Source: Pseudomonadales bacterium
GTDB lineage: Bacteria > Pseudomonadota > Gammaproteobacteria > Pseudomonadales > Azotimanducaceae
Direction: 5' to 3'
NCBI GenBank assembly: GCA_036351675.1
Contig: JAZBPO010000255.1
Coordinates: 1-59,036 of the forward strand
Length of the DNA: 59,036 nt
Part shown: positions 4,134 to 17,982 of the stretch, piece by piece
Layout: each line of letters opens with the position of its first letter
Position numbering within the stretch: position 1 is the first letter of the stretch
Program-made: the position numbers and the translations under genes
The notes under the pieces: model-generated
What the model was told of the DNA's origin: nothing
The model's input: the letters and a program-made list of their open reading frames with translations, nothing else
Databases searched by the model: none

Positions 4134-5130
4134 GATGCTCTCCAGTCCATGTCGTCTCGAGCGCAGAGGTGCTCACTCCCTCAAGCGACGAAACGGGTCG
4201 AAGCGTCCGGCGATAGTCCTGGAGAACCAGGAAAGCTCCTGGAATCAGTAGATTGGATTCGGCTGCGGCGAGGCCGGTCCTGCGGGAGGCGCACAGTCGG
4301 GGACCCTCGCCGGTCAGAAGCCCCTGCAGCCGGGGCGAAACGGTCGGATTCCAGGCGCAAATCGTCCCGCGGCCAGGAAGGCGTCAGGACACCCAGAGGC
4401 AGGATGCCTGCTGTCTCGAACTCGGGGCTGCCGCCGGATCCGAAGTGATCCCTTCTTCGTCCATCGGCTGCTTGCTCCGCGCGGGCGTTGGTCGGGGCCT
4501 GGAGTCGTGAGCGTCCCTTCGCGCGGTGTATGGCCCAGGACGGCGGCGATAGCGCGGGACCCGCGGCGCCGGGACGGATTCCGTAGCGAGGGGGGCGGAC
4601 CTTTCGGCGTCGCATCCGACCGCTGCTCTTCGAACGACACGCGCCCGGTTCGCGCCCACGCGCTTCGACGTGAGAAGGGGCGGCAGAGCCTCCTCCTCGT
4701 GCTCGACTTCGCGCTCTGCGCCTGAAGCGCGTCCGGGGAATCGACATCGCGCCATGGCGGCTTTGCGCTAGCCTGCGTGCGGCCGCCGATCCCGAGTCAC
4801 ATCGCCGATCTGCATGGTGTTCGTTGATGGCGGGCTTCCCTGGGACGCCCTCATCAGGAAGCGGACAGTCTCCGAGGAGATCGCGGCCTGTTCGTCCGAG
4901 GCGCGTCGCTTCCGTAGTGCGATCCCAGATAGTGTCGAGTCTCCGCGCGGACCGGCAGATGCGTCCTGCTCCAGATGCACCATGGATCCCGTGGCCTCGG
5001 CTGTTCCCGGGAATGGCCGGGATCGGCAGGCATGGGGATCAGATCCGTAGCAGCTGGGAACGCTGCCCCGCCGAAACCGGCGCATGCGGCCGAACCGACG
5101 ATGACGACGGCAGGAGGATGCGATTCCGTC

Positions 5131-7014
5131 ATGTGTGGGATTCTTGGCTACGTAGGGAACGACCGCACCGTGATCGATCGATTCCCCTCGGCGCTGGACA
5201 CCCTCGTCCACCGAGGGCCGGACGACTCGGGTATCTTCAGGGCCGATGGCGTGATTCTCGGCCATCGGCGCCTGTCGATAATCGATCTGTCCAAGGAAGG
5301 TCATCAGCCTTTCGTCGATGCTTCGAGCGGTAACGTCGTCACCTACAACGGGGAAATCTACAACTATCTCGAGATCAGGGAGTCTCTGGAGACCCTGGGT
5401 CACGACTTCCGGTCTGCTTGTGATACCGAGGTGCTCCTCCACGCGTACCGTGAATGGGGAGAGGCGTGCCTCCAGAAATTCAACGGGATGTTCTCCTTCT
5501 CGATTCTCGACCCCGAGAAGAAGAGACTGTTCTTCGCGCGCGACAGATTCGGGGTCAAGCCGTTCTATTACACTCGCGTGTCCGGCTTCATCTTCGCGTC
5601 AGAGCCGAAGGCGATCCTGAAGCTCGATCCGAGTCTGGCGAAGCCCGACCTTCGCGCACTGTACGAGTTCCTGCAGTTCGGGAGGCTCGGCGGTTCGGAG
5701 AGAACCTTCCTGGAGAACATCGAGTCCCTGCTCCCTGCGCACTATGGAGTGCTCGACCTCTCTAGCGGGAGGATCGAAACGTGTCGGTACTGGGATTATC
5801 CGGAGCAGTCGTCGGGAGAAACGGATCCCCGGAGTATCGAGGCGGAGTTCGAGCGCTGCTTCGATGATGCGGTCGCGCTTCGGACGCGCAGTGATGTCCC
5901 TGTAGGGCTGACGCTGTCGGGCGGCATCGACTCGACCGGCATTCTTGCGTCCTTGTCGAAGACTGGCGTCGAAGATCTCTCCAGCTTCACGTCCGTCTAT
6001 GGCGGTTCCGGGCCCGGCGAACTGGATTGGGCGAGGCTGGCGTGTGCGCCCTACTCGGACCGGGTGACGCTGACCGAAGTGCTGGCTGGTGCAGAAGGCT
6101 GGTTGAGCACGTTGGAGAAGATCGTCTGGCACATGGACGGGCCAGGTCTCTCGCCGGCGGTGTATCCGGTCTGGCGAGTCATGGAACGAGCGCGGCAGCA
6201 GGGTGTTCCCGTACTGCTGGAGGGGCAGGGCGCCGACGAACTGCTGGGTGGCTACGTGAACTACTCGGCCCTCGATCTGCTGGAGTCCATGAAGAACCTG
6301 CTCCGACCAGGCCGGAGAGCTTCACTACGCGAGGTCGTGAACAAGTGGCAGGCGATGGGCGACGCGTTCGGAGTGAAGCCGTCCGTCCTCTGGGTCCTGA
6401 GAGAGTCCTTCCCGTTCCTCTTCGAGATGAACAGAAAGCGGAACACGGCAGCTTACGCGCTCAAGGATTCGGTGGTCGAAAGCTGTGTGGTCTCTGGCGC
6501 TCGAAACGACATCGCCGCTTCGAAGTATCCGGATGATCCTGTCTCGGAAAGGCTCTGTTCGGATCATGCGAAGGACATACTTCCAAGCCTCCTCCACTAC
6601 GGCGACGCCATCAGCATGGCTCATTCCATCGAATGCAGACAGCCGTTCCTGGACTATCGGCTGGTGGAGTTCGTGTTCCGCCTTCGTTCCGAACAGAAGA
6701 TCAAGGGCGGCCGCACCAAGGCGCCATTGAGGGGCTATCTGATGAGAGCCGGGCAGGAGGCCATTGCCCGGCGAGCGGACAAGGTCGGGTACATGACGCC
6801 CGTAGATGCGTGGATGTCCAAGGACAACTGCACTGTGCTGAGGCTTTTTCTGTTGGAAGGTGCTCCGAGAATCCTGGAGTTCTGTGAGCGTGGACGGATT
6901 TCGGAGTTGATCGAGCGTTTCGGCGGCGGTGGATTCGCGCTGGGCAATCACATGTACAGGTTGCTGACGACGGAGATCTGGCTCAGGTCCCTGGCCGATC
7001 ACGGTCGATCCTGA
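5131..7014 (+). CDS. asnB: Asparagine synthase (glutamine-hydrolysing)
   Basis: MCGILGY gives the N-terminal Cys2 nucleophile at ATG 5131 inside ORF 4975..7014. The PP-loop LSGGIDS is present, and the product is 627 aa. The upstream extension of the ORF has no coding character. Confidence 0.9.
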   Translation: MCGILGYVGNDRTVIDRFPSALDTLVHRGPDDSGIFRADGVILGHRRLSIIDLSKEGHQPFVDASSGNVVTYNGEIYNYLEIRESLETLGHDFRSACDTEVLLHAYREWGEACLQKFNGMFSFSILDPEKKRLFFARDRFGVKPFYYTRVSGFIFASEPKAILKLDPSLAKPDLRALYEFLQFGRLGGSERTFLENIESLLPAHYGVLDLSSGRIETCRYWDYPEQSSGETDPRSIEAEFERCFDDAVALRTRSDVPVGLTLSGGIDSTGILASLSKTGVEDLSSFTSVYGGSGPGELDWARLACAPYSDRVTLTEVLAGAEGWLSTLEKIVWHMDGPGLSPAVYPVWRVMERARQQGVPVLLEGQGADELLGGYVNYSALDLLESMKNLLRPGRRASLREVVNKWQAMGDAFGVKPSVLWVLRESFPFLFEMNRKRNTAAYALKDSVVESCVVSGARNDIAASKYPDDPVSERLCSDHAKDILPSLLHYGDAISMAHSIECRQPFLDYRLVEFVFRLRSEQKIKGGRTKAPLRGYLMRAGQEAIARRADKVGYMTPVDAWMSKDNCTVLRLFLLEGAPRILEFCERGRISELIERFGGGGFALGNHMYRLLTTEIWLRSLADHGRS

Positions 7015-7371
7015 CGATCACTTGGCAGACGCGGGATTTCCGTGAGATTGCCGTGGATTTCCGCGTGGCGACCGGCTTCGGTGGGCGTTCCTTCGACCAC
7101 TGCTGTCGACGCGGCTTCGATTCGGACATCGGGGGATCGCAGACGTTCCCTCGCCATCCAGCGGATCCGAGGAACGGCTGACAGATCGCGGAAGACACAG
7201 GTGTGGCGGACGTCCGCGATCGTCCCGGGAAAAGGCGGGCGAGAAGGGAAAGCCGTGTGCCGTGAACGGGTCAGGCCGTCGCGTCCTGGAACGCCCTCCA
7301 TGTATGGTGGAGCCCGTGCCGGAACGGCCCGGTGGAACGCTTCTCGAACGAAGTCGGAATCGGGGACCGCC

Positions 7372-9105
7372 ATGCGTATCGCAGCATTGCTTCCGCTCGT
7401 TCTACTCGCATCGCTTCAGCAGCAGGCGGCCCTGGCAGCCGAGACCCTCGAGTACCGCATGCCGGAAGGGTTCTCCTATGCGTTCGAGAACGTCACGGAG
7501 TCGGGCTCGGTGATGGATGTCGAGGCCGACGGGCTGACCATGCCGCTCGAGCAGGAGGTGATCACGCGGACGGCGGGCAGCGTCAGCGTGCTCGCGTCGG
7601 AGGACGGCGTGCCGTCGCGGGTTCGAATCCGTTTCGCCCCGGACTGCGGCACACGATCGACAGCCAACGGCGCGACCCAGGACATGCCCTTCGCCCTTGC
7701 CGGGCGGACCATCGTCGTCGATGTGCGCGACGAGGCGATCGTCGCCGTTCGCGATATGGACGCGGGCGACCTCGTGCTGGACGAGCAGACTCGCCGAGTC
7801 GTCGCCGACATCGCGATCGCGGACGAGTCGTTGCTGCCGGGTCGGCCTGTCGCGCCCGGCGACAGCTGGGTCGCCGACATGGCGCGCGAGGAACGCTCGT
7901 CGACGCCGGTCCTCGATCTCGAAGTCGTCGCTTTCGGCGAGCAGGGTGGCCGACGCATCGCCGAGCTCGCCGCCGAGGGGACGCTCGAGGGAAGTCAGCA
8001 GGGTTTCGCCATGGCCGGCCGGCTGCGCGGTCCCATCGTCATGGACCTGGAAAGCGGCATGGCGCTGTCGTCGCGGCTGACGGGCGCGATCGATGTCGAT
8101 GGAACGCTGAACCAGGGCGGCACGATGGTCACGATGAGGGGCGTCCAGTCCATCACCATGACGTCGTCGAACCGGATCGGCGAGCGCGACCTGGCAACGG
8201 ACGCTGGACCAACCCGAACTCCGCAAGCGGGCAGCGCCGACGACTGGGTGGCGTTCCGGCATGCGTCCGGCGCCACGCTGAAGCACCCTGGATCATGGGG
8301 CGTGGAGGACGGACCCGACGGCGTACGGTTGATCCCGCCCGACACGGCCGGCAACGAGATGATCGTGGCAAGCGGCCTCGCGTCCGGAGCCGGGAGCCCT
8401 GCTTCGCAGGAGGTTGCGGCATACCTCGACTCGGCGCTCGGGCAGATGCTTCCGGGGCTGCGGCGAAGCGGGCCACCGCAGCCGGTTCCTTCGGGCAACG
8501 GACAGGGCGCCCTGTACAGCTACCGTGGCGCTCTGCTCGACGGTTCGCCGATCCTTGCCGACGTCTACGTGACGATCGAGAACGGTGTCGCACTCAGTCT
8601 GTCGGCGATCGCGCCGCCCCCGACCCTGCGCGCCCGTGGCCCGGCCTTGCGCGAGATCTTCGCGAGCATGGCGATGAGCGGATCGTCGGGGCCGGCCATG
8701 GCGGCCGCCGGCGGCGGTGTCGGGGCTGGCGGCAGCGCGAACACGGACGACGACCGCCTGATCGGCATGTTCGGTGGGGAATCGGTCCACCGCGGCAGCG
8801 GGACCTACTTCAACACCCAGCTCGTCTACGTTCTCAACGCCGACGGCACGGTGTACCACGGGGCACAGGGTCACTTCGATGCCGTCACCCGCGATTCGAA
8901 CGGCTACACGCGATGGTCGGCCTCGGGGGTCACCGACGGCAGCGTCCAGGGCGGCCGCTGGAGCGCCCAGGGCGGTGTCCTCGCGATTCGTTGGGACTCG
9001 GGCGAGCGGTCCAGCTTCGCCTATGGCTTCGAACCGGACGGTAGCCTGGTCCTGCGCAATCCGCGTACACGCGAGCTGATCAACTTCTTCGGACGCGTGC
9101 GCTAG
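7372..9105 (+). CDS. Secreted hypothetical protein
   Basis: An internal ATG at 7372 gives a clean signal peptide ([24 protein letters not shown]). GC3 is high throughout. I recognise no domain. Confidence 0.7.
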
Positions 9106-9238
9106 CGCGATCCTCCAGGCGCCGCCCGACGGGAACGCGCTCCTGCCGCTTCGATGGAAGCCGGTCCCGCTGGATTCGTGGCGCGCGCATACTGTTCCGG
9201 TTGGGCCCGATCCCGCGCTTCGACCGGAGAACCGCACC

Positions 9239-10861
<1,623 letters not shown>

Positions 10862-10880
10862 CCGCGCTCCGACGGGGTGC

Positions 10881-11714
10881 TCAGGCCGGCACTTCCTCGA
10901 CGATGTAGCCCCCGGACTTCTCGTCCGCCGTCAGCCGCAGGGCCCCGCGGGCCTGCGCCTCTTCCAGAAGGGCGCCGAAGTTCGCGAAGCCGAAGGCCTT
11001 CTCGTTGAAGCCGGGGCGGCGGCGCTTCAGGGACTGCTTGACCATCGAGCCCCAGACCTTCTCGCCATCGTCGCGGGCGTCCAGGAGCGCCGTCGCGATC
11101 TCCAGCACCCATTCGATGGCCTTGTCCTCTTTCTTCGCCTCTTCGCTCTGCTCCGTTCCCGCAGTCTCGGCCTTCGCGGTCTTGCTGCGACCGCCGCGGC
11201 GCTTGCGCCTCGCGGGTCGTTCCTTCTCGAGTACGAGATCGTCGTAGAAGATGAACTCGTCGCAGATGTGCGTGAGCAGGTCGGAGGTGGACGTGCGCAC
11301 GCCGACGCCGATGACCTTGCGGTCGTTCTCGCGCAGCTTGCTCACGAGGGGCGAGAAGTCCGAGTCGCCGGATATGACGACGAAGGTGTCGAGGTGCGGC
11401 TTCGTGTAGCAGAGGTCGAGGGCGTCCACGACCATGCGGATGTCCGCCGAGTTCTTGCCGGAAATGCGCACGTGCGGGATCTCGATGAGCTCGAAGGAGG
11501 CCTCGTGCATGGCCTTCTTGTAGTCCTTGTAGCGATCCCAGTCGCAGTAGGCCTTGCGCACCACGAGGTTGCCGCGGAGCAGGAGTCGGTCGAGGACGGG
11601 GGCGATGTCGAACTTCGCGTACTTCGCGTCACGCGCGCCGAGGGCGATGTTCTCGAAGTCGCAGAACACCGCCATGCTGATCGTCTGATGGTCCATCGGT
11701 CTGTTGGTTTCCAC
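10881..11714 (-). CDS. NYN (LabA-like) ribonuclease domain protein with C-terminal OST-HTH/LOTUS domain
   Basis: MAVFCDFENI ... KNSADIRMVVDALD ... FVVISGDSDFSPLVSKLRE, a basic/acidic linker, then a C-terminal helical LOTUS-like region. The start is GTG 11714 or ATG 11696. Confidence 0.85.
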   Translation of the reverse strand: METNRPMDHQTISMAVFCDFENIALGARDAKYAKFDIAPVLDRLLLRGNLVVRKAYCDWDRYKDYKKAMHEASFELIEIPHVRISGKNSADIRMVVDALDLCYTKPHLDTFVVISGDSDFSPLVSKLRENDRKVIGVGVRTSTSDLLTHICDEFIFYDDLVLEKERPARRKRRGGRSKTAKAETAGTEQSEEAKKEDKAIEWVLEIATALLDARDDGEKVWGSMVKQSLKRRRPGFNEKAFGFANFGALLEEAQARGALRLTADEKSGGYIVEEVPA

Positions 11715-11944
11715 TTCGGGAGGTGACTCTGGGGCTCATCGTACGTCACCGCCGCGCAAATGCGTGTCGGCATCGCCGCTCGCGAGATCGATCGGCTGCC
11801 GCCCGGCGTTCGCCATGGCGTGCGCGGATCGCGGCGTCGTCGTGGGGCGCGTCCCGACGATCGAGTGTCCGATGGGGAGCGATCGCTCCTACGCGAGAGG
11901 CGCGCCTATACTGCGTCGGACGATCGGTCGTCGGGGGAGCGCAC

Positions 11945-13465
11945 TTGGGGCAGGGGATCACGGGGACGGCGCGCCTGCCTGCTGCCTATCGCGGCTCGGA
12001 GCCCTACGTCTTCGTCTGCTATTCCCACCACGACAGTGATGCGGTCCATGCGGATCTGGCGCGGCTTCGCGGCATCGGCCTTCGCATCTGGTACGACGAG
12101 GGCATCAGCCCGGGTTCCGAGTGGAGCGAGGAGCTCGCGCAGGCCCTCGAGGGTGCCGAGCTGGTCCTGTTCTATGCGACGGAGCGATCCGCGAACTCGC
12201 GGCACTGCCGCGACGAGATCAACTTCGCGCACAACCACGACAAGTCGATCCTGCCCATCTTCCTCGAGGACGTGAGTCTGCCGAAAGGGCTCGAACTCTC
12301 GCTCAGCTCGACGCAGGCGGTCCTCCGCTTCCGGCTCGACGAAGACCACTACCTCGAGAAGCTGCGCTCCGTGTTGCCGGTCGCGACGATCGGGGAATCC
12401 GCCTCGACGCGCTCCGACGCGCACGCGCCTGTTTCCCCCGCGCTCGAGACGCGGCAGGCGACGGGGCCCCGTCGTCCCGTGGGACTCGCCGTCGCGATCC
12501 TGGCGATCGCAGCCCTCGCCGCCGTGCTGCTCGACCGAGACGCGCTCATCGCCCGATGGGTCATGTTCCGGGCGGATCATCTCGGCAGTCCCATGGAGCA
12601 GCAGGTGGGCTTCGGCGTCGCCGCTGACGGGACGCGCATCGCCTATGCCGTCACGGGGGAGGGGCCGCCGATCCTCATCGTGCTCGGCTGGGCGACGCAT
12701 CTCGAGACCGGCTTCAACAGCCCGACCTACGACGGTCTCGGCGTGCTCGCGCTCACGTCGGAGCATCATCGGGTGATCCGCTATGACGGGCGCGGCTTCG
12801 GTCTGTCCGATCGGGACATCGACGACTTCTCGCTGGAGGCCCGCGTCAGTGACATCGAGGCCGTGGTCGCGGCGGCAGGTCTCGACCGTTTCGCCCTCTA
12901 CGCGCTTTCCGCCGGCGGGCCGGCGGGTATCGCCTATGCGCACAGGCACCCGGAGAAGGTCGTGAGCCTGACGCTCGCGAGCTCCAGCGCCGCACCTTCG
13001 GAGATCGAGCGCACGGACCTCGAAGCCTTCCTGGGCACGCTCGACGTCGTGGAGGCCGGCTATGATCGTTCCGAGAGTTCGGTGAATCTGTTCACCGAAG
13101 TGCTGTTTCCGGACGCCGACGGTCCGACGCGGGAAATCTTCCGCGAGTTCCTGAGGCGATCCGCCCGCGGCACGGATCTGGTCGGCTTCTTCCGGGGCTA
13201 CATGGAAGAGAACGTCAACGATCTCGCCGAGACCCTGACGGTGCCGACCTACGTCATCCACGGTCAGGACGACCGCACCATCCCGCTCGAGCGCGGACGC
13301 AGGATGGCGTCGCTGATCCCCGGGGCGCGCTTCGAGATCGTTCCCGGCGGCCACCCGGAAGGTACGGGCCAGACGCCCGAGACGCGGCGCAAGATCATCG
13401 ACTTCATCGACGAGATCTACGCGCGGGAGCGCGCGGAACCGTCTGGCCTGCCCGAGGCGGAGTGA
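11945..13465 (+). CDS. TIR domain - single transmembrane helix - alpha/beta-hydrolase fusion protein
   Basis: ORF 11723..13465. The likely start is TTG 11945, preceded by GGGGGAG. The TIR_2-like region reads YVFVCYSHHD...WYDEGISPGSEW...SRHCRDEINFA...ILPIFLED. The TM helix is GLAVAILAIAALAAVLL. The hydrolase region has ILIVLGW, YDGRGFGLSD, YALSAGG, HGQDD and GGH. Confidence 0.8.
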   Translation: MGQGITGTARLPAAYRGSEPYVFVCYSHHDSDAVHADLARLRGIGLRIWYDEGISPGSEWSEELAQALEGAELVLFYATERSANSRHCRDEINFAHNHDKSILPIFLEDVSLPKGLELSLSSTQAVLRFRLDEDHYLEKLRSVLPVATIGESASTRSDAHAPVSPALETRQATGPRRPVGLAVAILAIAALAAVLLDRDALIARWVMFRADHLGSPMEQQVGFGVAADGTRIAYAVTGEGPPILIVLGWATHLETGFNSPTYDGLGVLALTSEHHRVIRYDGRGFGLSDRDIDDFSLEARVSDIEAVVAAAGLDRFALYALSAGGPAGIAYAHRHPEKVVSLTLASSSAAPSEIERTDLEAFLGTLDVVEAGYDRSESSVNLFTEVLFPDADGPTREIFREFLRRSARGTDLVGFFRGYMEENVNDLAETLTVPTYVIHGQDDRTIPLERGRRMASLIPGARFEIVPGGHPEGTGQTPETRRKIIDFIDEIYARERAEPSGLPEAE

Positions 13466-13477
13466 GCTGCGGGAGAA

Positions 13478-15712
13478 GTGATGCCGATCGGAAACATCGT
13501 CGCGCGCTCTGCGCGCACCTTCGTGCGCGACGCCCTCACCAGCGGCTTCGCGGTCCTGTCGGCGCTGATCTCCACGGCGCTCGGCGCTGAGCCGGACCCG
13601 GAGCTTTCCCTGGAGGCGCTGCTCGAGCGGCCGGGCATCTTCGGCACCGCGCCTGCGGGTCCTGCGTGGTCGCCCGACGGTGCGCAGCTCGCGTTCCGCT
13701 GGGCCGAGCCCGGCGAGGGCCGGCGCGGCCTGTGGCTGGTGGCTGCCAGCGGCGAGAATCTCCGGCGCATCGACCAGGGCGCGGCGAACGCGCCAGCAGT
13801 CCGGGAGATCGCCTGGTCCGCCGACGGCGGGCACCTGCTCTCGCTGCGCGGGGATCAGCTGTGGCAGAGCGATCCGGCCGGTGGCGGAGAAGCGGCGATG
13901 TACACGGTCGGTGCCGGAGCCGGGGACCTGAAGGTCTCGCCCGATGGCCGCTACGTGAGCTACCTGCGCGATGGTGACCTGTGGCTCTTCGATCTGCGGA
14001 CGCAGCGCGAACGGGCGCTCACCGCTGTCGGGCTGCCACCCCTGTCGGAGCCGCCCACGGGGCGCTACAGCCGGCCGGAGCGCGAGATCGGTCCGGGCAT
14101 CTGGGGCGGCCCGACCTACGCCTGGTCGCCGGACGGTGCGCGGATCGCGCTTCACCACGTGGATCGCCGTGGCATGCGCCGGGTGCCGTTCCCGAACTAT
14201 CTCGCCGAGGAGACCGATCCGAATCCCGTCCGCCGCGGCTATCCGGGCGACCCCAACGAGGCGCGGCATGTCGGGCTCCTGGGCGTCGAGGATGGCGAGC
14301 TGACGCTGCTGGAACTCGACGAGCCCGAGTCGTTCCAGATCGTCGGCTTCGACTTCTCGAAGCGCGGCGACCTGCTCGTCGACACGGCGTCGGACACCGC
14401 CACCGATCGCCGCCTCTACACGCTCGCCGCCGGGAGCACCGTGCCGGAGCTGCTCTGGGAGAGCCGACGCGAGACGCGCATCTACACCAGCTTCGCCGCG
14501 CGCTGGGTTGCCGCGGGCGATGCGGTCGTCTTGCTCAGCGACCACGAGGACCGCTACGGCCTCTATCGCCTGGCCGTGGATCAGGACGGTGCCGGCACGC
14601 TGCGCCGTCTCGACGATCCTGCCGACGACGTCCTGAGCGAACCGAAGTTCGCCGGCGACGCGCTGTACTTCGAGGCCAATGCCGAGAGTCCGGCGGACCG
14701 TCACGTGTTCCGCCTCGACCCCGGCGCGGCGGTCGCCGAGCAGTTGACGCGCACGCCCGGGCAGAACGTCGCCTTCCCGGCGCCGCGCGGCGGCGCCGTC
14801 GCCATCCTCCACGAGGACGATCGCCATCCGCGCGAGCTCTTCATGCTGTCGGCCGGTGACGCCACGCCACGACGGGTCACCCACTCGCCTGCGGCGGACT
14901 TCGACGACTTCCCGCTCGCCGAGGTCCGCTACCTGCAGACGCCGGCCGGCGGAAGCGGGCCGCCGCTGCACGTGCGTCTCATGCTTCCTGCGGACTTCGA
15001 TGCGGACCGGCGCTACCCGGTGCTCTTCGGCCCGATGTACTCGAACACGGTCCGCAACCGCTGGGGTTCTTCCTACGCCCTGGTGCAGCAGCTCATGACG
15101 CAGCGCGGCTATCTGGTGGTGCAGGTCGACGTGCCCGGCAGCACGGGCTACGGCCGTGCCTTCCGCGAAGTCTTCCTGAACGATTTCGCCGGTGGCGACA
15201 TCGAGGCCATCGAGCGCGTCGTGGCGTATCTGAAGACGCTGCCCTACGTGGACGGTGACCGGCTGGGTATCTGGGGCAGCAGCTACGGCGGCACGCTCAC
15301 GGTCTACACGCTGCTGAAGAAGCCGGGCCTCTTCGCCGCCGGCGTGGCGGCCGCCGCGGCCGTCGATCCAGCGTTCTTCGGCACCGACGACGTCGCGATC
15401 GTGGGCCGGCCCGAGGACGGCACGGGCATCTTCGAGCGCAGGGCCGAGGATCTCGTCGACCGGCTCGAGGACGCACTGCTGCTCGTGCACGGCCTGCAGG
15501 ATCAGGTCGTCCCCTTCAAGACCGCGGCTGCTCTCACCGACGCCTTCATCCGCGCGGGCAAGGACGTGGAGACCGCCTTCCTGCCGGCTGCCACGCACGG
15601 CTGGAGCCGCGAGCCGGGCTACGCCCGCTACGGCTATCAGCGTCTGCTCGACTTCTTCGATCGGCATCTGCAGCCGGGTGAGGGCGACCCGGCGCCGTCT
15701 CGATCGCCGTGA
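13478..15712 (+). CDS. S9 family serine peptidase (DPP IV / prolyl oligopeptidase-like) with signal peptide
   Basis: It starts 12 nt after the TIR-hydrolase stop and GGGAGA precedes it. N-terminal beta-propeller-like WSPDG repeats are present. The C-terminal catalytic motifs are GIWGSSYGG, VHGLQDQVVP and ATHGW. Confidence 0.9.
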   Translation: MMPIGNIVARSARTFVRDALTSGFAVLSALISTALGAEPDPELSLEALLERPGIFGTAPAGPAWSPDGAQLAFRWAEPGEGRRGLWLVAASGENLRRIDQGAANAPAVREIAWSADGGHLLSLRGDQLWQSDPAGGGEAAMYTVGAGAGDLKVSPDGRYVSYLRDGDLWLFDLRTQRERALTAVGLPPLSEPPTGRYSRPEREIGPGIWGGPTYAWSPDGARIALHHVDRRGMRRVPFPNYLAEETDPNPVRRGYPGDPNEARHVGLLGVEDGELTLLELDEPESFQIVGFDFSKRGDLLVDTASDTATDRRLYTLAAGSTVPELLWESRRETRIYTSFAARWVAAGDAVVLLSDHEDRYGLYRLAVDQDGAGTLRRLDDPADDVLSEPKFAGDALYFEANAESPADRHVFRLDPGAAVAEQLTRTPGQNVAFPAPRGGAVAILHEDDRHPRELFMLSAGDATPRRVTHSPAADFDDFPLAEVRYLQTPAGGSGPPLHVRLMLPADFDADRRYPVLFGPMYSNTVRNRWGSSYALVQQLMTQRGYLVVQVDVPGSTGYGRAFREVFLNDFAGGDIEAIERVVAYLKTLPYVDGDRLGIWGSSYGGTLTVYTLLKKPGLFAAGVAAAAAVDPAFFGTDDVAIVGRPEDGTGIFERRAEDLVDRLEDALLLVHGLQDQVVPFKTAAALTDAFIRAGKDVETAFLPAATHGWSREPGYARYGYQRLLDFFDRHLQPGEGDPAPSRSP

Positions 15713-15974
15713 GCACCGCTTCCGCGGAGCGCGGCCACCTCAGCCGCCAATCGGGCCTCCGGGCCTGGCGGCGCCCGGCATCTGCTCCATGCTCGGCGCG
15801 TCTGTTTCCGAACGGCAGGTGCGGTTCGGCGGGAGAACCTCCTGCGCCCGGATGCGAACCGGAGCGAAGCGCTGAAACGCGCGTGTAGGAGATGTCGCAC
15901 AGCAGTGCGGGGCAGGCCCGGCTGCGCTGGAATCGTCGGCCGCAGAGCGCGGCGCTCGTCAGGGGAGAGGGATC

Positions 15975-16964
15975 GTGACCAAGATCTACTTCGGGACCAA
16001 CCGCAAGCCGAACCGCAAGTCGAACCCGACGGACTTCGGTGGCGAGTTCTCGGACATGGGGCTCGCGAACCTCCGCTTCGGCTCGGCGCAGGTGGACCTC
16101 GCCGGCGCTGCGCCCGCCATCGACCTGGACGTCTATCCCGAGGTCACGCCGAAGACCCGCGTGAAGCCGGACTTTCTCGGCGACGTGCAGCGGCGCATGG
16201 CGGACGAGGGCGCCGACGTGATCGTCTTCGTGCACGGCTTCAACGTCAGCTTCACGGAAGCGCTGGTCTCGGCAGCGCGCATGAAGGAAGCCTACACGGC
16301 CGCCGCGGGCCGCCCCTTCGAGGTGGTGGTCTTCTCCTGGCCGTCGAACGGCGAGGTCCTCCACTACCGCAGCGATCGCAAGGACGCGGAGGCGTCGGGC
16401 TATGCGCTGACCCGCGGCCTGGAGTTCCTGTTCCGGTTCCTCGCGCGCATGAACGAGGAGGAGGCCTGCGAGCAGCGTCTCCACCTCGTCTGTCACTCCA
16501 TGGGTAACTACGCCCTGCGCTGGGCGGTGCAGGCCATGAAGGAGGAGCGGCGTGTGCTGCCCCGGGTGTTCGAGGAGATCATCCTCGCGGCCGCGGACGA
16601 GGACGACGACTGCTTCGAGCACGACTTCAAGCTCGGTGACCTGCCCGCGCTCGGCCAGCGTGTCACCGTGCTCTTCAATCGCAACGACTGGGCGCTCGGT
16701 GTCAGCGATCTGGCGAAGGGGAACATGGACCGCCTCGGCGCGAGCGGCGCGCGCCGGCCTCGCATGGTGCATCACAAGATCTCGCTCGTGGACTGCACCG
16801 ACGTCGTCCGGGGCAGGCTCCGGCGCGACCCCATCGAGCACGGCTACTTCCTCGACCAGCAGACCGTGGTCGGCGACATCGGCGACGTGCTGCGGGGCCT
16901 CGCCTCGGACCAGATCGGTGGTCGACGCTTCATCGCCGAGAAGAACGTCTATCGTCTCGGCTGA
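15975..16964 (+). CDS. DUF900-family alpha/beta hydrolase
   Basis: GTG start after AGGGGAGAGGG. Motifs are IYFGTNR, VIVFVHGFNVSF, FSWPSNG and the nucleophile elbow CHSMGN. Confidence 0.8.
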   Translation: MTKIYFGTNRKPNRKSNPTDFGGEFSDMGLANLRFGSAQVDLAGAAPAIDLDVYPEVTPKTRVKPDFLGDVQRRMADEGADVIVFVHGFNVSFTEALVSAARMKEAYTAAAGRPFEVVVFSWPSNGEVLHYRSDRKDAEASGYALTRGLEFLFRFLARMNEEEACEQRLHLVCHSMGNYALRWAVQAMKEERRVLPRVFEEIILAAADEDDDCFEHDFKLGDLPALGQRVTVLFNRNDWALGVSDLAKGNMDRLGASGARRPRMVHHKISLVDCTDVVRGRLRRDPIEHGYFLDQQTVVGDIGDVLRGLASDQIGGRRFIAEKNVYRLG

Positions 16965-17403: not shown

Positions 17404-17982
17404 GTGGGTGTCGAGCTGAACTGGGAGGCGATGGGAGCCGTTGGTGAGCTCCTCGGTTCGCTGCTCGTGCTGGTGACGCTCGTCTACCTGGCCATCCAGA
17501 CCCACAGCATCAAGAAGCAGATGAAGGCCGAAGCCCGCTACAACTTCGTCGCTTCGATGGCCGACATCAATCTCCACATCGCGCAGAACACGCAGACGGC
17601 TTCGGTGTGGCGCAAGGGCCTGGAAGACGTGGACTCCCTGTCGTCGGACGAGCGCATGCAGTTCCTCATGTACATGGGGCAGAGCTGCAACTTCTGGTCG
17701 GTGATGTACCGCCTGGAGCAGGACGGGACGCTTCCCGCGGACCAGTGGTCCATCGCGAAGACCGACATGGTGAGCCTGCTGGCCAGTAGCGGCGGGCTGT
17801 TCTTCTGGAAGCACGGCGGCCGTGAAGCCTTCGACGACGAGTTCGCCGCCTTCGTGGATGGCGAGCTCGAGAGCCAGAAGCCGGCCTATGACATGGCTTC
17901 GATCTCGGCGGGAGTTCGTGAGTCGCGAAAGGAAGGCGCGGAGACCTCGGCGGCGACTGCGGAGCGACCGGGCGGCTCGTGA
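17404..17982 (+). CDS. Membrane-anchored hypothetical protein
   Basis: N-terminal hydrophobic helix (ELLGSLLVLVTLVYLAIQ) followed by a helical soluble region. GC3 is high. I recognise no domain. The start is GTG 17404 or ATG 17431. Confidence 0.6.
   Translation: MGVELNWEAMGAVGELLGSLLVLVTLVYLAIQTHSIKKQMKAEARYNFVASMADINLHIAQNTQTASVWRKGLEDVDSLSSDERMQFLMYMGQSCNFWSVMYRLEQDGTLPADQWSIAKTDMVSLLASSGGLFFWKHGGREAFDDEFAAFVDGELESQKPAYDMASISAGVRESRKEGAETSAATAERPGGS

What the first reader, a model, noticed from the sequence alone, without database searches (positions are those of the whole stretch)
11945..13465. Receptor-like transmembrane TIR protein: cytoplasmic TIR, one TM helix, extracytoplasmic alpha/beta-hydrolase
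The translation has a TIR_2-type N-terminal domain (YVFVCYSHHD ... SRHCRDEINFA ... ILPIFLED). It keeps a Glu at the position that is catalytic in bacterial TIR NADases. One hydrophobic helix follows (about 12480-12535), then a complete alpha/beta-hydrolase fold with an apparent Ser/Asp/His triad (YALSAGG, HGQDD, GGH). The predicted topology puts the TIR inside and the hydrolase outside, which is the logic of a transmembrane receptor. The characterised bacterial TIR systems I know (Thoeris ThsB, TIR-STING, TIR-NLR types) are soluble. I do not recognise this fusion as a described system.
Basis: partly seen in the sequence, partly recalled or inferred. Interest (0 to 1): 0.72.

Follow-up and report, generated by a model that had tools for sequence, protein, structure and literature searches.

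The report
Membrane receptor with cytoplasmic TIR output
This gene encodes a single-pass inner-membrane protein with an NAD-cleaving-type TIR domain inside the cell and an intact esterase-like domain in the periplasm; relatives carry a cAMP cyclase or a DNA-binding domain in place of the TIR, so it looks like an undescribed kind of bacterial receptor.

Summary
Window 11945-13465(+) encodes a 506-aa protein with these parts:
- TIR_2 domain (aa 22-130)
- disordered linker
- one very hydrophobic helix (aa 178-196)
- short juxtamembrane helices
- complete alpha/beta-hydrolase (aa 220-497)

Four residues are conserved in 46 full-length homologues: Glu91, which aligns to the catalytic Glu208 of AbTir, and the Ser322/Asp443/His470 triad.

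The receptor reading is supported and extended.
- The same TM-plus-hydrolase module (about 50% identical) carries an N-terminal class III cyclase or a ToxR-like winged-helix domain in other bacteria.
- Positive-inside bias puts the N-terminus in the cytoplasm in 50/53 TIR members and 73/74 cyclase members.
- The TM-linked hydrolase domains are almost free of cysteine, unlike their soluble relatives.
- This TIR subtype also heads many TIR-TM-TPR, DcrB, FGE-sulfatase and PD40 proteins.

The link to the downstream S9 peptidase is not supported: no window neighbour recurs at the homologue loci examined. There is no defence-island context.

I found no published description. The ligand, NADase activity and physiological role remain untested. 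The full-length fusion is rare: six species genomes, all gammaproteobacterial MAGs.

The parts
11934..11939 (+). Shine-Dalgarno-like GGGGAG, 5 nt upstream of the TTG start
   Evidence: Sequence read.
11945..13465 (+). Gene for the 506-aa TIR-TM-alpha/beta-hydrolase protein (TTG start, stop included)
   Evidence: (P0001, 100% identity, 506 aa).
12008..12373 (+). TIR domain (aa 22-143), predicted cytoplasmic
   Evidence: Pfam TIR_2 E 3.3e-18. AF2 pLDDT is mostly above 90 with an alternating beta/alpha pattern. A family profile hits AbTIR, TLR1/2, SARM1 and Cat1 in the PDB.
12215..12217 (+). Codon of Glu91, the catalytic-position glutamate of the TIR domain (HCRDE, the WxxxE position)
   Evidence: Invariant in 46 of 46 homologues. 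Aligns to the Glu of NWTEYEL in AbTir chain 7uxr. By my residue count this is AbTir E208, the catalytic glutamate named in PMC10022894.
12404..12469 (+). Disordered linker rich in Arg, Pro and Thr (aa 154-175); RRP lies just before the helix
   Evidence: AF2 pLDDT below 50. K/R are enriched on the N-side of the helix across the family.
12476..12532 (+). Single transmembrane helix (aa 178-196), predicted N-in/C-out signal anchor
   Evidence: KD 2.69 and the only such segment in the protein. Helix in the AF2 model. Conserved in position but not in sequence in 53 TIR-type and 74 cyclase-type relatives, with positive-inside bias.
12536..12583 (+). Juxtamembrane helices (aa 198-213) joining the TM helix to the hydrolase core
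   Evidence: AF2 helices 198-208 and 210-213. The gap from TM helix to hydrolase is about 19 aa in all classes. PlaF (6i8w) aligns over 330 columns, against about 280-290 for most soluble esterases.
12602..13435 (+). Alpha/beta-hydrolase domain (aa 220-497), predicted periplasmic, with a helical cap at about aa 356-420
   Evidence: Pfam Abhydrolase_1, Abhydrolase_6 and Hydrolase_4. Foldseek target-normalised TM-score (TMt) about 0.8 to esterases and enol-lactonases. PDB sequence hits to 5h3h, 8v16 and 3om8.
12908..12910 (+). Codon of Ser322, the nucleophile in the A-L-S-A-G elbow
   Evidence: Invariant in A1 and at least 90% conserved across all fusion classes in A2.
13271..13273 (+). Codon of Asp443, the triad acid in the HGQDDRTIP motif
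   Evidence: At least 90% conserved.
13352..13354 (+). Codon of His470, the triad base in the GGH motif
   Evidence: Invariant in A1 and at least 90% conserved in A2.

Best explanation
The gene encodes a self-contained single-pass inner-membrane signal transducer of a diderm bacterium, probably a gammaproteobacterium.

Shown or strongly supported:
- an N-terminal TIR domain with the catalytic glutamate
- an Arg-rich linker
- one N-in/C-out TM helix
- a short juxtamembrane helix
- a periplasmic alpha/beta-hydrolase with an intact Ser-Asp-His triad

Inferred mechanism:
1. The periplasmic hydrolase is the input module. It binds, and probably turns over, an ester, lactone or lipid-like ligand.
2. 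This changes the self-association of the TM/juxtamembrane segment. In PlaF, fatty acids drive TM/JM-mediated dimerisation in the same way.
3. The change in proximity is passed to the cytoplasmic TIR domains. TIR domains, like class III cyclase domains, are active only when self-associated.
4. The assembled TIRs cleave NAD+. This either produces a cADPR-type nucleotide signal or lowers NAD+.

On this reading the TIR is one of several interchangeable outputs built on one sensor chassis. The others are a cAMP cyclase and a ToxR-like DNA-binding domain.
For: Domains and conserved catalytic residues.

TM helix and topology.

Output swapping:
- Among 192 relatives of the hydrolase domain, 53 are TIR-TM-hydrolase, 74 are cyclase-TM-hydrolase and 4 are Trans_reg_C-TM-hydrolase. 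All have the same spacing of about 19 aa from TM helix to hydrolase.
- Soluble relatives are fused to GerE, Pkinase, cyclase or Trans_reg_C.
- The window's hydrolase domain is as close to cyclase-type members (median 52% identity) as to other TIR-type members (median 48%). TIR and cyclase types interleave in an identity clustering.
- The two TIR subgroups have TIR domains only 25% identical. This suggests more than one fusion event.

A wider TIR-TM class: 44 of 85 N-terminal single-TIR representatives have a hydrophobic 19-mer starting at aa 131-212. Its K/R bias is N-in (34 against 4). The 20 examined carry C-terminal TPR/FlgO-like, DcrB, FGE-sulfatase, PD40 or hydrolase domains, and a few have no recognisable C-terminal domain.

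PlaF precedent for a TM-JM-anchored periplasmic hydrolase regulated by dimerisation: and PMC9132575.

Ordinary chromosomal context:
- An outer-membrane beta-barrel gene shows the organism is a diderm.
- GC3 is like that of neighbouring genes.
- No conserved partner genes.
Against: - No experiment supports any step. Topology, NADase activity and hydrolase activity are all inferred.
- The catalytic-position Glu is also kept in TLR1/TLR2 TIR domains. To my knowledge these are not NADases, so the Glu alone does not prove catalysis.
- The ligand is unknown. The nearest structures are generic esterases and enol-lactonases at about 20-24% identity, and no NCBIfam model reaches its cut-off.
- No reader of a TIR-made nucleotide (SLOG, Macro, SAVED, etc.) lies nearby.
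- The direction of signalling, outside-in or inside-out, is not established.
- The clustering used to argue for repeated swapping is a crude UPGMA on pairwise identity.
Confidence: 0.55

Rival explanations
1. It is an anti-phage or abortive-infection effector. The periplasmic hydrolase detects envelope damage or a phage-derived cue, and the TIR then depletes NAD+ to arrest or kill the cell. The architecture is the same as in the best explanation, but the role is immunity rather than routine sensing.
For: - TIR domains with the catalytic Glu are typical of Thoeris, TIR-STING, TIR-SAVED and Cat1 (PDB hits). PADLOC gives weak ThsB and TIR-effector hits, E 1.5e-6 to 4e-3.
- The full-length fusion is rare and patchy: six of 185,579 species genomes.
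- Two homologue copies are disrupted: a nonsense codon in the TIR of L005 and a frameshift in L003/L004. That pattern fits a costly gene.
Against: - No defence or mobile genes lie next to it in the window or at the homologue loci. The neighbours are metabolic or housekeeping genes and differ each time.
- No ThsA-like partner is present.
- Sister proteins use cyclase, DNA-binding, kinase and LuxR-type outputs, which are typical of ordinary signal transduction.
- Composition matches the host genome.
Confidence: 0.2
2. It is mainly a membrane-anchored periplasmic enzyme, a PlaF-like lipase or esterase acting on envelope lipids or exogenous esters. The TIR serves only as a cytoplasmic oligomerisation or regulatory handle. 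It would signal inside-out, or be non-catalytic and scaffold-like.
For: - The triad is fully conserved, so hydrolysis is under selection.
- PlaF has the same TM-JM-hydrolase build and is itself controlled by dimerisation (PMC9132575).
- In this genome the gene sits among genes for predicted exported hydrolases: DUF885 and S9 peptidase with signal-peptide-like N-termini, plus DUF900.
- TLR-type TIRs keep the same Glu; to my knowledge they have no NADase activity.
Against: - The partner domains in sister proteins (cyclase, wHTH, kinase, GerE) are classical outputs, not oligomerisation handles.
- An invariant Glu91 and eight other invariant TIR positions over 34-65% divergent homologues argue for more than a scaffold.
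- Similarity to PlaF is in architecture, not orthology: 19% identity and phmmer E 1.7e-5.
Confidence: 0.17
3. The hydrophobic segment is not a membrane-spanning helix. It is either a buried or peripheral helix, or a cleaved signal peptide. Both domains would then be on the same side of the membrane.
For: No topology predictor or experiment was available. The AF2 model cannot by itself distinguish a membrane helix from a soluble one.
Against: - It is a 19-residue stretch of A/L/I/V/G with KD 2.69, flanked by RRP on the N-side.
- It is conserved in place but not in sequence in 127 or more relatives, with strong positive-inside bias.
- It lies 177 residues from the N-terminus, behind a folded domain, which rules out a signal peptide.
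- Soluble relatives of the same hydrolase lack the segment entirely and have a different Cys content.
Confidence: 0.03

Closest known systems
PlaF (PA2949) of Pseudomonas aeruginosa, PDB 6i8w: a membrane-bound phospholipase A1
   Same: It has an N-in single TM helix, a juxtamembrane helix and a periplasmic alpha/beta-hydrolase with a cap. Its activity is governed by TM/JM-mediated dimerisation, which fatty acids promote (PMC9132575). The Foldseek alignment spans 330 columns.
   Different: PlaF has only two charged residues before the helix and no cytoplasmic domain. Sequence similarity is generic: 19% identity, E 1.7e-5. Phospholipase activity was not tested here.
Class III cyclase fused to an alpha/beta-hydrolase (LipJ/Rv1900c type), and the cyclase-TM-hydrolase proteins found here (e.g. 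P0049, L009-L039)
   Same: The hydrolase domain is from the same clade. The TM-linked cyclase forms are about 50% identical to the window protein over TM, JM and hydrolase, with identical spacing.
   Different: The output is cAMP/cGMP synthesis rather than a TIR. In LipJ-type proteins, by the NCBIfam LipJ model, the hydrolase is N-terminal to the cyclase; the two hydrolase-cyclase relatives examined here also lack a TM helix. The cyclase-TM forms occur mainly in Myxococcota, Binatia and other 'delta' lineages, not in Gammaproteobacteria.
ToxR/CadC-like one-component transmembrane regulators
   Same: The layout is the same: cytoplasmic N-terminal output, a single TM helix and a periplasmic sensor in one polypeptide. 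Direct sister proteins carry Trans_reg_C on the same hydrolase chassis (L030, L031, L037, L047).
   Different: The output here is a TIR domain, not a DNA-binding domain. To my knowledge, the periplasmic sensors of ToxR and CadC are not alpha/beta-hydrolases.
Bacterial TIR NADases: AbTir/TcpB-type, Thoeris ThsB, TIR-STING, TIR-SAVED, Cat1
   Same: It has the TIR fold, box 1 and the BB-loop PG, and the catalytic glutamate aligned to AbTir E208. Activation by self-association is the expected mode.
   Different: To my knowledge those proteins are soluble and are activated by cytoplasmic cues: nucleotide-binding STING, SAVED or CARF domains, phage proteins, or coiled-coil dimerisation. This protein has a TM helix and a periplasmic domain. 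It has no ThsA, CD-NTase or CRISPR partner.
Metazoan Toll-like and IL-1 receptors
   Same: The logic is the same: an extracytoplasmic sensor, one TM helix and a cytoplasmic TIR. TLR1, TLR2 and TLR15 are among the best PDB sequence matches to the TIR domain.
   Different: The polarity is reversed: type II, with the TIR N-terminal. The sensor is a hydrolase, not LRR or Ig. TLR TIRs signal through adaptor scaffolding rather than NAD+ cleavage. Common descent of the whole receptor is not implied.
Alpha/beta-hydrolase receptors D14/KAI2/DAD2 (plants) and RsbQ (Bacillus)
   Same: A catalytically competent alpha/beta-hydrolase acts as a ligand-perceiving module. DAD2 (4dnp) is among the structural matches (E 3.3e-15, TMt 0.77).
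   Different: Those are soluble proteins that signal through separate partners. The resemblance here is no closer than to ordinary esterases, and the ligand class is unknown.

Membership tests
TIR domain (Pfam TIR_2, PF13676) | Profile match above the curated threshold | tested here: met
   66.8 bits against a cut-off of 28, E 3.3e-18, aa 22-130.
TIR domain NADases | Catalytic glutamate on helix alpha-C (the WxxxE position) | tested here: met
   E91 is invariant in 46 homologues. It aligns to the Glu of NWTEYEL in AbTir chain 7uxr. By my residue count this is AbTir E208, named as catalytic in PMC10022894. The Trp position is His in this subgroup and Trp in the P0100 subgroup.
TIR domain NADases | NAD+ cleavage or cyclisation activity that depends on self-association | not testable with these tools
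   This needs an enzyme assay of wild type against E91A.
Thoeris (ThsB with ThsA) | An adjacent ThsA-type effector (SIR2, SLOG or Macro) in the same locus | tested here: not met
   PADLOC gives only weak domain-level ThsB hits for this protein and none for the other window genes tested except a generic NYN match. The flanking genes are NYN/OST-HTH, S9 peptidase, DUF885 and DUF900. None is conserved at other loci.
Alpha/beta-hydrolase fold serine hydrolases | Profile and fold match, with a Ser-Asp-His triad in canonical order and a small-x-Ser-x-small elbow | tested here: met
   Abhydrolase_1 at 72.4 bits. Foldseek TMt about 0.8. A-L-S322-A-G, D443 and H470 are conserved.
Alpha/beta-hydrolase fold serine hydrolases | A specific named subfamily (PcaD, BioH, LipJ, macrolide esterase, etc.) | tested here: not met
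   All NCBIfam hits are far below their cut-offs. The best is PcaD at 75 bits against 255.85.
PlaF-like membrane-bound phospholipase A | N-terminal TM helix plus juxtamembrane helix anchoring a periplasmic hydrolase | tested here: met
   AF2 helices at 179-196, 198-208 and 210-213. 6i8w_A aligns over 330 columns.
PlaF-like membrane-bound phospholipase A | Close sequence relationship, and phospholipase A1 activity | tested here: not met
   Only 19% identity and phmmer E 1.7e-5 over aa 225-352. Activity is not testable here.
Single-pass one-component transmembrane receptors (ToxR-like or receptor-kinase-like layout) | Cytoplasmic N-terminal output, one TM helix with N-in orientation, and an extracytoplasmic C-terminal sensor in one polypeptide | tested here: inconclusive
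   Indirect evidence agrees. This covers the positive-inside bias, sister proteins with cyclase or wHTH outputs, and Cys depletion of the TM-linked domain. No topology experiment or dedicated predictor was available.
Conserved multi-gene system with the S9 peptidase | Co-occurrence of the neighbouring genes across genomes | tested here: not met
   tblastn of S9, NYN, DUF885 and DUF900 against the loci of eight distinct homologues gave no hits. Gene tables of homologue loci show different neighbours each time.

The most novel reading that the evidence does not exclude
These proteins, together with the much larger set of TIR-TM-TPR, DcrB, FGE-sulfatase and PD40 proteins that share this TIR subtype, would be a previously unrecognised class of bacterial type II transmembrane receptors. 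In them a periplasmic sensor switches on a cytoplasmic TIR enzyme. TIR-made NAD+-derived nucleotides would then serve as ordinary second messengers for sensing the environment or the envelope, on a par with cAMP. They would not be confined to phage defence. Bacteria would have a functional analogue of Toll-like receptor topology.
Probability: 0.3. Interest if true: 0.85.

Novelty: new variant of a known kind. Interest (0 to 1): 0.7.

Why it matters
To my knowledge, bacterial TIR domains are currently understood mainly in two ways: as soluble NADases in anti-phage systems, and as secreted virulence factors.

This protein gives a concrete, testable case of a TIR wired as the cytoplasmic output of a membrane receptor. 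In close relatives the TIR is swapped for a cAMP cyclase or a ToxR-like DNA-binding domain on the same sensor chassis. That would have three consequences:
- It would widen the known roles of TIR enzymology to signalling from outside the cell.
- It would give a natural system for studying how proximity across a single TM helix activates a TIR.
- It would identify a clade of alpha/beta-hydrolases that act as sensor modules in bacteria.

It also shows that many database entries named 'pimeloyl-ACP methyl ester carboxylesterase' are in fact signalling proteins.

Tried and rejected
- **Neighbourhood conservation.** tblastn of the four window neighbours against homologue loci gave nothing. Gene tables from seven look-ups showed no shared partner. 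I rejected the idea of a TIR plus S9 peptidase operon system. In this genome the two genes are 13 nt apart with no terminator-like site between them.
- **Defence-system models.** PADLOC gave only weak TIR-domain hits.
- **NCBIfam.** No model reached its cut-off.
- **Regulatory RNA and repeats.** An Rfam scan of 10500-16500 gave one chance-level snoRNA hit, E 0.83. The repeat scan gave only short chance-like matches. The promoter scan found nothing. There are no tRNAs.
- **Alternative start.** GTG 11723 would add a 74-aa Arg-rich extension that no homologue has, and it abuts the divergent NYN gene.
- **Signal peptide.** Rejected on position, since the helix lies 177 aa into the protein.
- **Horizontal acquisition.** No compositional signal.
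- **Tree building.** The neighbour-joining tree timed out. I used an identity-based UPGMA instead, so the 'interleaving' of TIR and cyclase types is only indicative.
- **TIR-only homologue search.** The word-indexed search returned mostly fragments. The exhaustive representative search was the informative one.
- **Literature.** Searches for this fusion, for TIR-TM receptors, and for periplasmic hydrolase sensors found no description. The Burroughs/Aravind 2015 survey of TIR contexts was not in the searchable library, so prior mention there cannot be excluded.
Full report
**1. What is in the sequence**

The ORF that ends at 13465 has only two plausible in-frame starts, GTG 11723 and TTG 11945.
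- TTG 11945 follows a GGGGAG box (11934-11939).
- It gives an N-terminus of the same length as the homologues.
- It matches the 506-aa database entry for this contig (P0001).
- GTG 11723 would add an Arg-rich 74-aa extension found in no relative, and it abuts the start of the divergent gene at 11714.

**2. Domains**

- Pfam gives TIR_2 (aa 22-130, E 3.3e-18) and Abhydrolase_1, Abhydrolase_6 and Hydrolase_4 (aa 241-470, E 5.9e-20). All are well above the curated thresholds.
- An AlphaFold2 model built on 46 homologues is confident: mean pLDDT 88.8, with 371 residues at 90 or above.
- The model shows, in order:
  - a TIR-like alternating beta/alpha domain (22-143)
  - a disordered linker (154-175)
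  - a long helix (179-196)
  - two short helices (198-213)
  - a canonical alpha/beta-hydrolase with a helical cap (220-497)
- Foldseek matches the C-terminal domain to esterases, enol-lactonases and haloperoxidase-type hydrolases, with target-normalised TM-score (TMt) about 0.8 and 19-24% identity.
- The sequence search of the PDB agrees.
- No NCBIfam equivalog model comes near its cut-off. The substrate class is therefore open.

**3. Catalytic residues**

- In the 46-member alignment A1 (34-65% identical to the window protein), E91, S322 and H470 are invariant. D443 is conserved in at least 90%.
- A profile of the TIR regions hits AbTIR (7uxr, E 2.3e-9), TLR1/2/15, Cat1, SARM1 and plant TIRs.
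- The family-invariant Glu aligns with the Glu of NWTEYEL in AbTir. By my residue count on that alignment, this is residue 208 in AbTir numbering.
- PMC10022894 names E208 as the catalytic glutamate of AbTir.
- TLR1 and TLR2 keep the same Glu. To my knowledge they are not NADases, so retention is necessary but not sufficient for catalysis.

**4. The hydrophobic helix and topology**

- The segment PVGLAVAILAIAALAAVLL (aa 178-196, mean Kyte-Doolittle 2.69) is the only such stretch in the protein.
- In 53 TIR-type and 74 cyclase-type relatives, a comparable segment sits at the same distance from the hydrolase core, about 19 aa. Its sequence is not conserved.
- Lys plus Arg in the 15 residues on the N-side average 4.5-4.6, against 1.1-1.7 on the C-side. 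N exceeds C in 50/53 TIR-type and 73/74 cyclase-type proteins. This is the positive-inside signature of an N-in signal anchor.
- The helix lies 177 residues into the protein, behind a folded domain, so it is not a signal peptide.
- As a second, independent indicator I counted cysteines in the hydrolase domain.
  - TM-linked domains are almost Cys-free: 43/53 TIR-type and 66/74 cyclase-type have none. Nine of the ten TIR-type domains that have any carry an even number.
  - Soluble relatives average 2.2-3.0, and the count is usually odd.
  - This fits an oxidising, extracytoplasmic location for the TM-linked domains. The groups are not phylogenetically independent.
- The window also encodes an outer-membrane beta-barrel protein. 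'Outside' therefore means the periplasm.

**5. The decisive comparative result: swappable outputs on one sensor chassis**

- The homologue search found about 50 clusters with the full TIR-TM-hydrolase build.
- The next-best hits are about 50% identical across TM, juxtamembrane segment and hydrolase. They carry an N-terminal class III cyclase domain instead of the TIR (sequences read).
- A scan of one genome per GTDB species, followed by Pfam scans, added two groups.
  - Trans_reg_C-TM-hydrolase proteins occur in gammaproteobacterial MAGs. Their layout is that of ToxR and CadC.
  - Soluble relatives are fused to Ser/Thr kinase, LuxR-type GerE, cyclase or Trans_reg_C domains.
- Among 192 relatives, the TM-linked classes number 74 cyclase, 53 TIR and 4 winged-helix. 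The soluble classes number 31 GerE, 5 kinase, 6 cyclase and 3 winged-helix.
- A cyclase needs ATP and a DNA-binding domain needs the chromosome. The N-terminal side of this TM helix must therefore be cytoplasmic.
- This hydrolase clade is repeatedly used as the non-output half of signalling proteins.
- The window's hydrolase domain is as similar to cyclase-type members (median 52%) as to other TIR-type members (median 48%). The two types interleave in an identity clustering.
- The two TIR subgroups have TIR domains only 25% identical. This suggests more than one fusion event, but a proper tree is needed.

**6. A wider TIR-TM class**

- An exhaustive search with the TIR domain alone found 430 representatives at E of 1e-30 or below.
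- Of the 147 non-redundant best hits, 85 have a single N-terminal TIR.
- Of those 85, 44 have a hydrophobic 19-mer starting at aa 131-212. Its K/R bias is N-in (34 against 4), and the median C-terminal region is about 430 aa.
- The C-terminal regions of the 20 examined hold TPR with a FlgO/TolB-N-like 'SIAVLPF' module, DcrB repeats, FGE-sulfatase, PD40 propeller blades, a weak sub-threshold CsgG-like match, or the alpha/beta-hydrolase. A few have no recognisable domain.
- These named domains are, to my knowledge, typical periplasmic domain types.
- The window protein is therefore a minor, hydrolase-bearing branch of a large and apparently uncharacterised set of TIR-TM-periplasmic-domain proteins.

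**7. Context**

- Upstream and divergent lies an NYN plus OST-HTH protein (10881-11714).
- Downstream, 13 nt after the stop and with no terminator-like site between, lies an S9/DPP-IV-type peptidase with a signal-peptide-like N-terminus (13478-15712). A DUF900 hydrolase follows.
- None of these neighbours, nor DUF885, is found in the flanks (about 8-10 kb where the contig allows) of the eight distinct homologue loci searched by tblastn.
- The gene tables show different metabolic or housekeeping neighbours each time.
- The rest of the window is ordinary chromosome: an ECF sigma factor, a molybdopterin oxidoreductase, an aminotransferase, an aldolase and HupE.
- There are no tRNAs, no mobile-element genes, and no compositional anomaly.
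- The protein is therefore a stand-alone unit, not part of a conserved operon or a defence island.
- The full-length TIR fusion is rare. It occurs in six of 185,579 species genomes, all uncultured Gammaproteobacteria or Pseudomonadales.

**8. Mechanism**

What I regard as established by computation:
- the architecture
- the conservation of both catalytic centres
- the membrane helix
- the modular exchange of N-terminal outputs

What is inferred:
1. The periplasmic hydrolase is the input.
2. Ligand binding or turnover alters the self-association of the TM/juxtamembrane region.
3. That change brings the TIR domains together and switches on NAD+ cleavage.

Two observations make this the most economical model.
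- TIR and class III cyclase catalytic domains both need self-association to form active sites (general knowledge of both families). They are therefore natural alternatives on a chassis whose signal is a change in oligomeric state.
- PlaF of P. aeruginosa has the same TM-JM-hydrolase build and an experimentally periplasmic catalytic domain. It is regulated by TM/JM-mediated dimerisation, which fatty acids promote (PMC9132575). It aligns to the model over more columns than the soluble esterases do (330 against about 280-290 for most of them).

Three things cannot be decided here:
- whether the TIR makes a signalling nucleotide or simply drains NAD+
- whether the physiological role is routine sensing, envelope surveillance or immunity
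- what the ligand is

**9. Rivals**

- An abortive-infection role is compatible with the same architecture.
  - The rarity of the fusion and two disrupted copies hint at it. L005 has a TAG replacing the Tyr of the invariant WYDEG motif. L003/L004 have a frameshift in the hydrolase.
  - The lack of any defence context and the nature of the sister outputs argue against it.
- An 'enzyme first' reading treats the protein as a PlaF-like periplasmic lipase with a regulatory TIR handle.
  - It cannot be excluded.
  - It fits less well with the kinase, LuxR, wHTH and cyclase partners.
- A non-membrane reading is very unlikely.

**10. Novelty**

- I found no paper that describes a TIR-TM-hydrolase protein, TIR-headed single-pass receptors in bacteria, or periplasmic alpha/beta-hydrolase sensor domains.
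- The library does not cover everything. In particular, the 2015 Aravind-lab survey of TIR contexts could not be searched.
- Source annotations call these proteins 'pimeloyl-ACP methyl ester carboxylesterase'.
- I rate it a new variant of known kinds: a TIR NADase combined with a one-component transmembrane receptor. Its interest is high for a purely computational finding.

Noticed in passing
L009-L039, L047, L049 (cyclase or Trans_reg_C with TM and hydrolase); L045, L055, L059, L060 (hydrolase-Pkinase); L054, L077 and many Burkholderiales loci (hydrolase-GerE); L032, L035 (hydrolase-cyclase): One clade of alpha/beta-hydrolases, with the triad retained, is fused to at least five kinds of signalling output besides TIR: cyclase, ToxR-like wHTH, Ser/Thr kinase, LuxR-type HTH and soluble wHTH. 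It behaves as a general sensor module. The hydrolase-GerE form is the commonest soluble form (31 of 192).
   Followed up: partly
Proteins P0185, P0187, P0194-P0197, P0216, P0230, P0232, P0236, P0262, P0269, P0276 and others: The same TIR subtype (about 50% identical) heads many proteins with a TM helix at about aa 160. Their C-terminal parts hold TPR/FlgO-like, DcrB, FGE-sulfatase or PD40 domains. One protein (P0230) has TIR and Trans_reg_C in tandem before the helix. This looks like a large uncharacterised class of TIR-TM proteins.
   Followed up: partly
Proteins P0154, P0162, P0165, P0166, P0174, P0243: Some proteins carry three to seven tandem copies of this TIR subtype. Examples are P0154 (610 aa, four copies) and P0165 (2023 aa, seven matched stretches). 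Some have a single hydrophobic segment far downstream.
   Followed up: no
L005 8109-8111; L003 about 9150-9200 and L004: The copy in the Ca. Azotimanducaceae MAG has TAG in place of the Tyr codon of the invariant WYDEG motif of the TIR, with Asn replacing the adjacent Asp. The P0026 copy, seen on 13 contigs, is frameshifted inside the hydrolase. These are either pseudogenes or assembly errors.
   Followed up: partly
window 17404-17982 (+) and L010 5693-6142: A 192-aa ORF with an N-terminal hydrophobic segment and no Pfam match lies 4 kb downstream of the TIR gene. A 34%-identical homologue lies 1.9 kb upstream of the TIR gene in the complete MAG genome CP121329.1. It was not seen at the other loci, so it may be coincidence.
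   Followed up: no
window 10881-11714 (-): The divergently transcribed upstream gene encodes an NYN ribonuclease-like domain (E 1.2e-35) with a weak OST-HTH/LOTUS match (E 0.0015, below the Pfam cut-off). PADLOC also gives a weak NYN hit. It is not conserved next to homologues of the TIR gene.
   Followed up: partly
window 9239-10861, 13478-15712, 15975-16964: The TIR gene sits in a local run of hydrolase genes. DUF885 and the S9/DPP-IV-type peptidase have signal-peptide-like N-termini; a DUF900 alpha/beta-hydrolase follows. The peptidase starts 13 nt after the TIR gene stop, with no terminator-like site between, so the two are probably co-transcribed in this genome only.
   Followed up: partly
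window 4172-9080: This stretch has lower G+C (0.64 against about 0.70) and no strong GC3-type gene call. The 687-aa ORF at 7042-9105 has no Pfam match.
   Followed up: no
whole window: The database lists the longest contig carrying P0001 as 59,036 bp, the same length as the window. The window is therefore probably an entire metagenomic contig. Its closest relatives are uncultured Pseudomonadales (GTDB sense).
   Followed up: no
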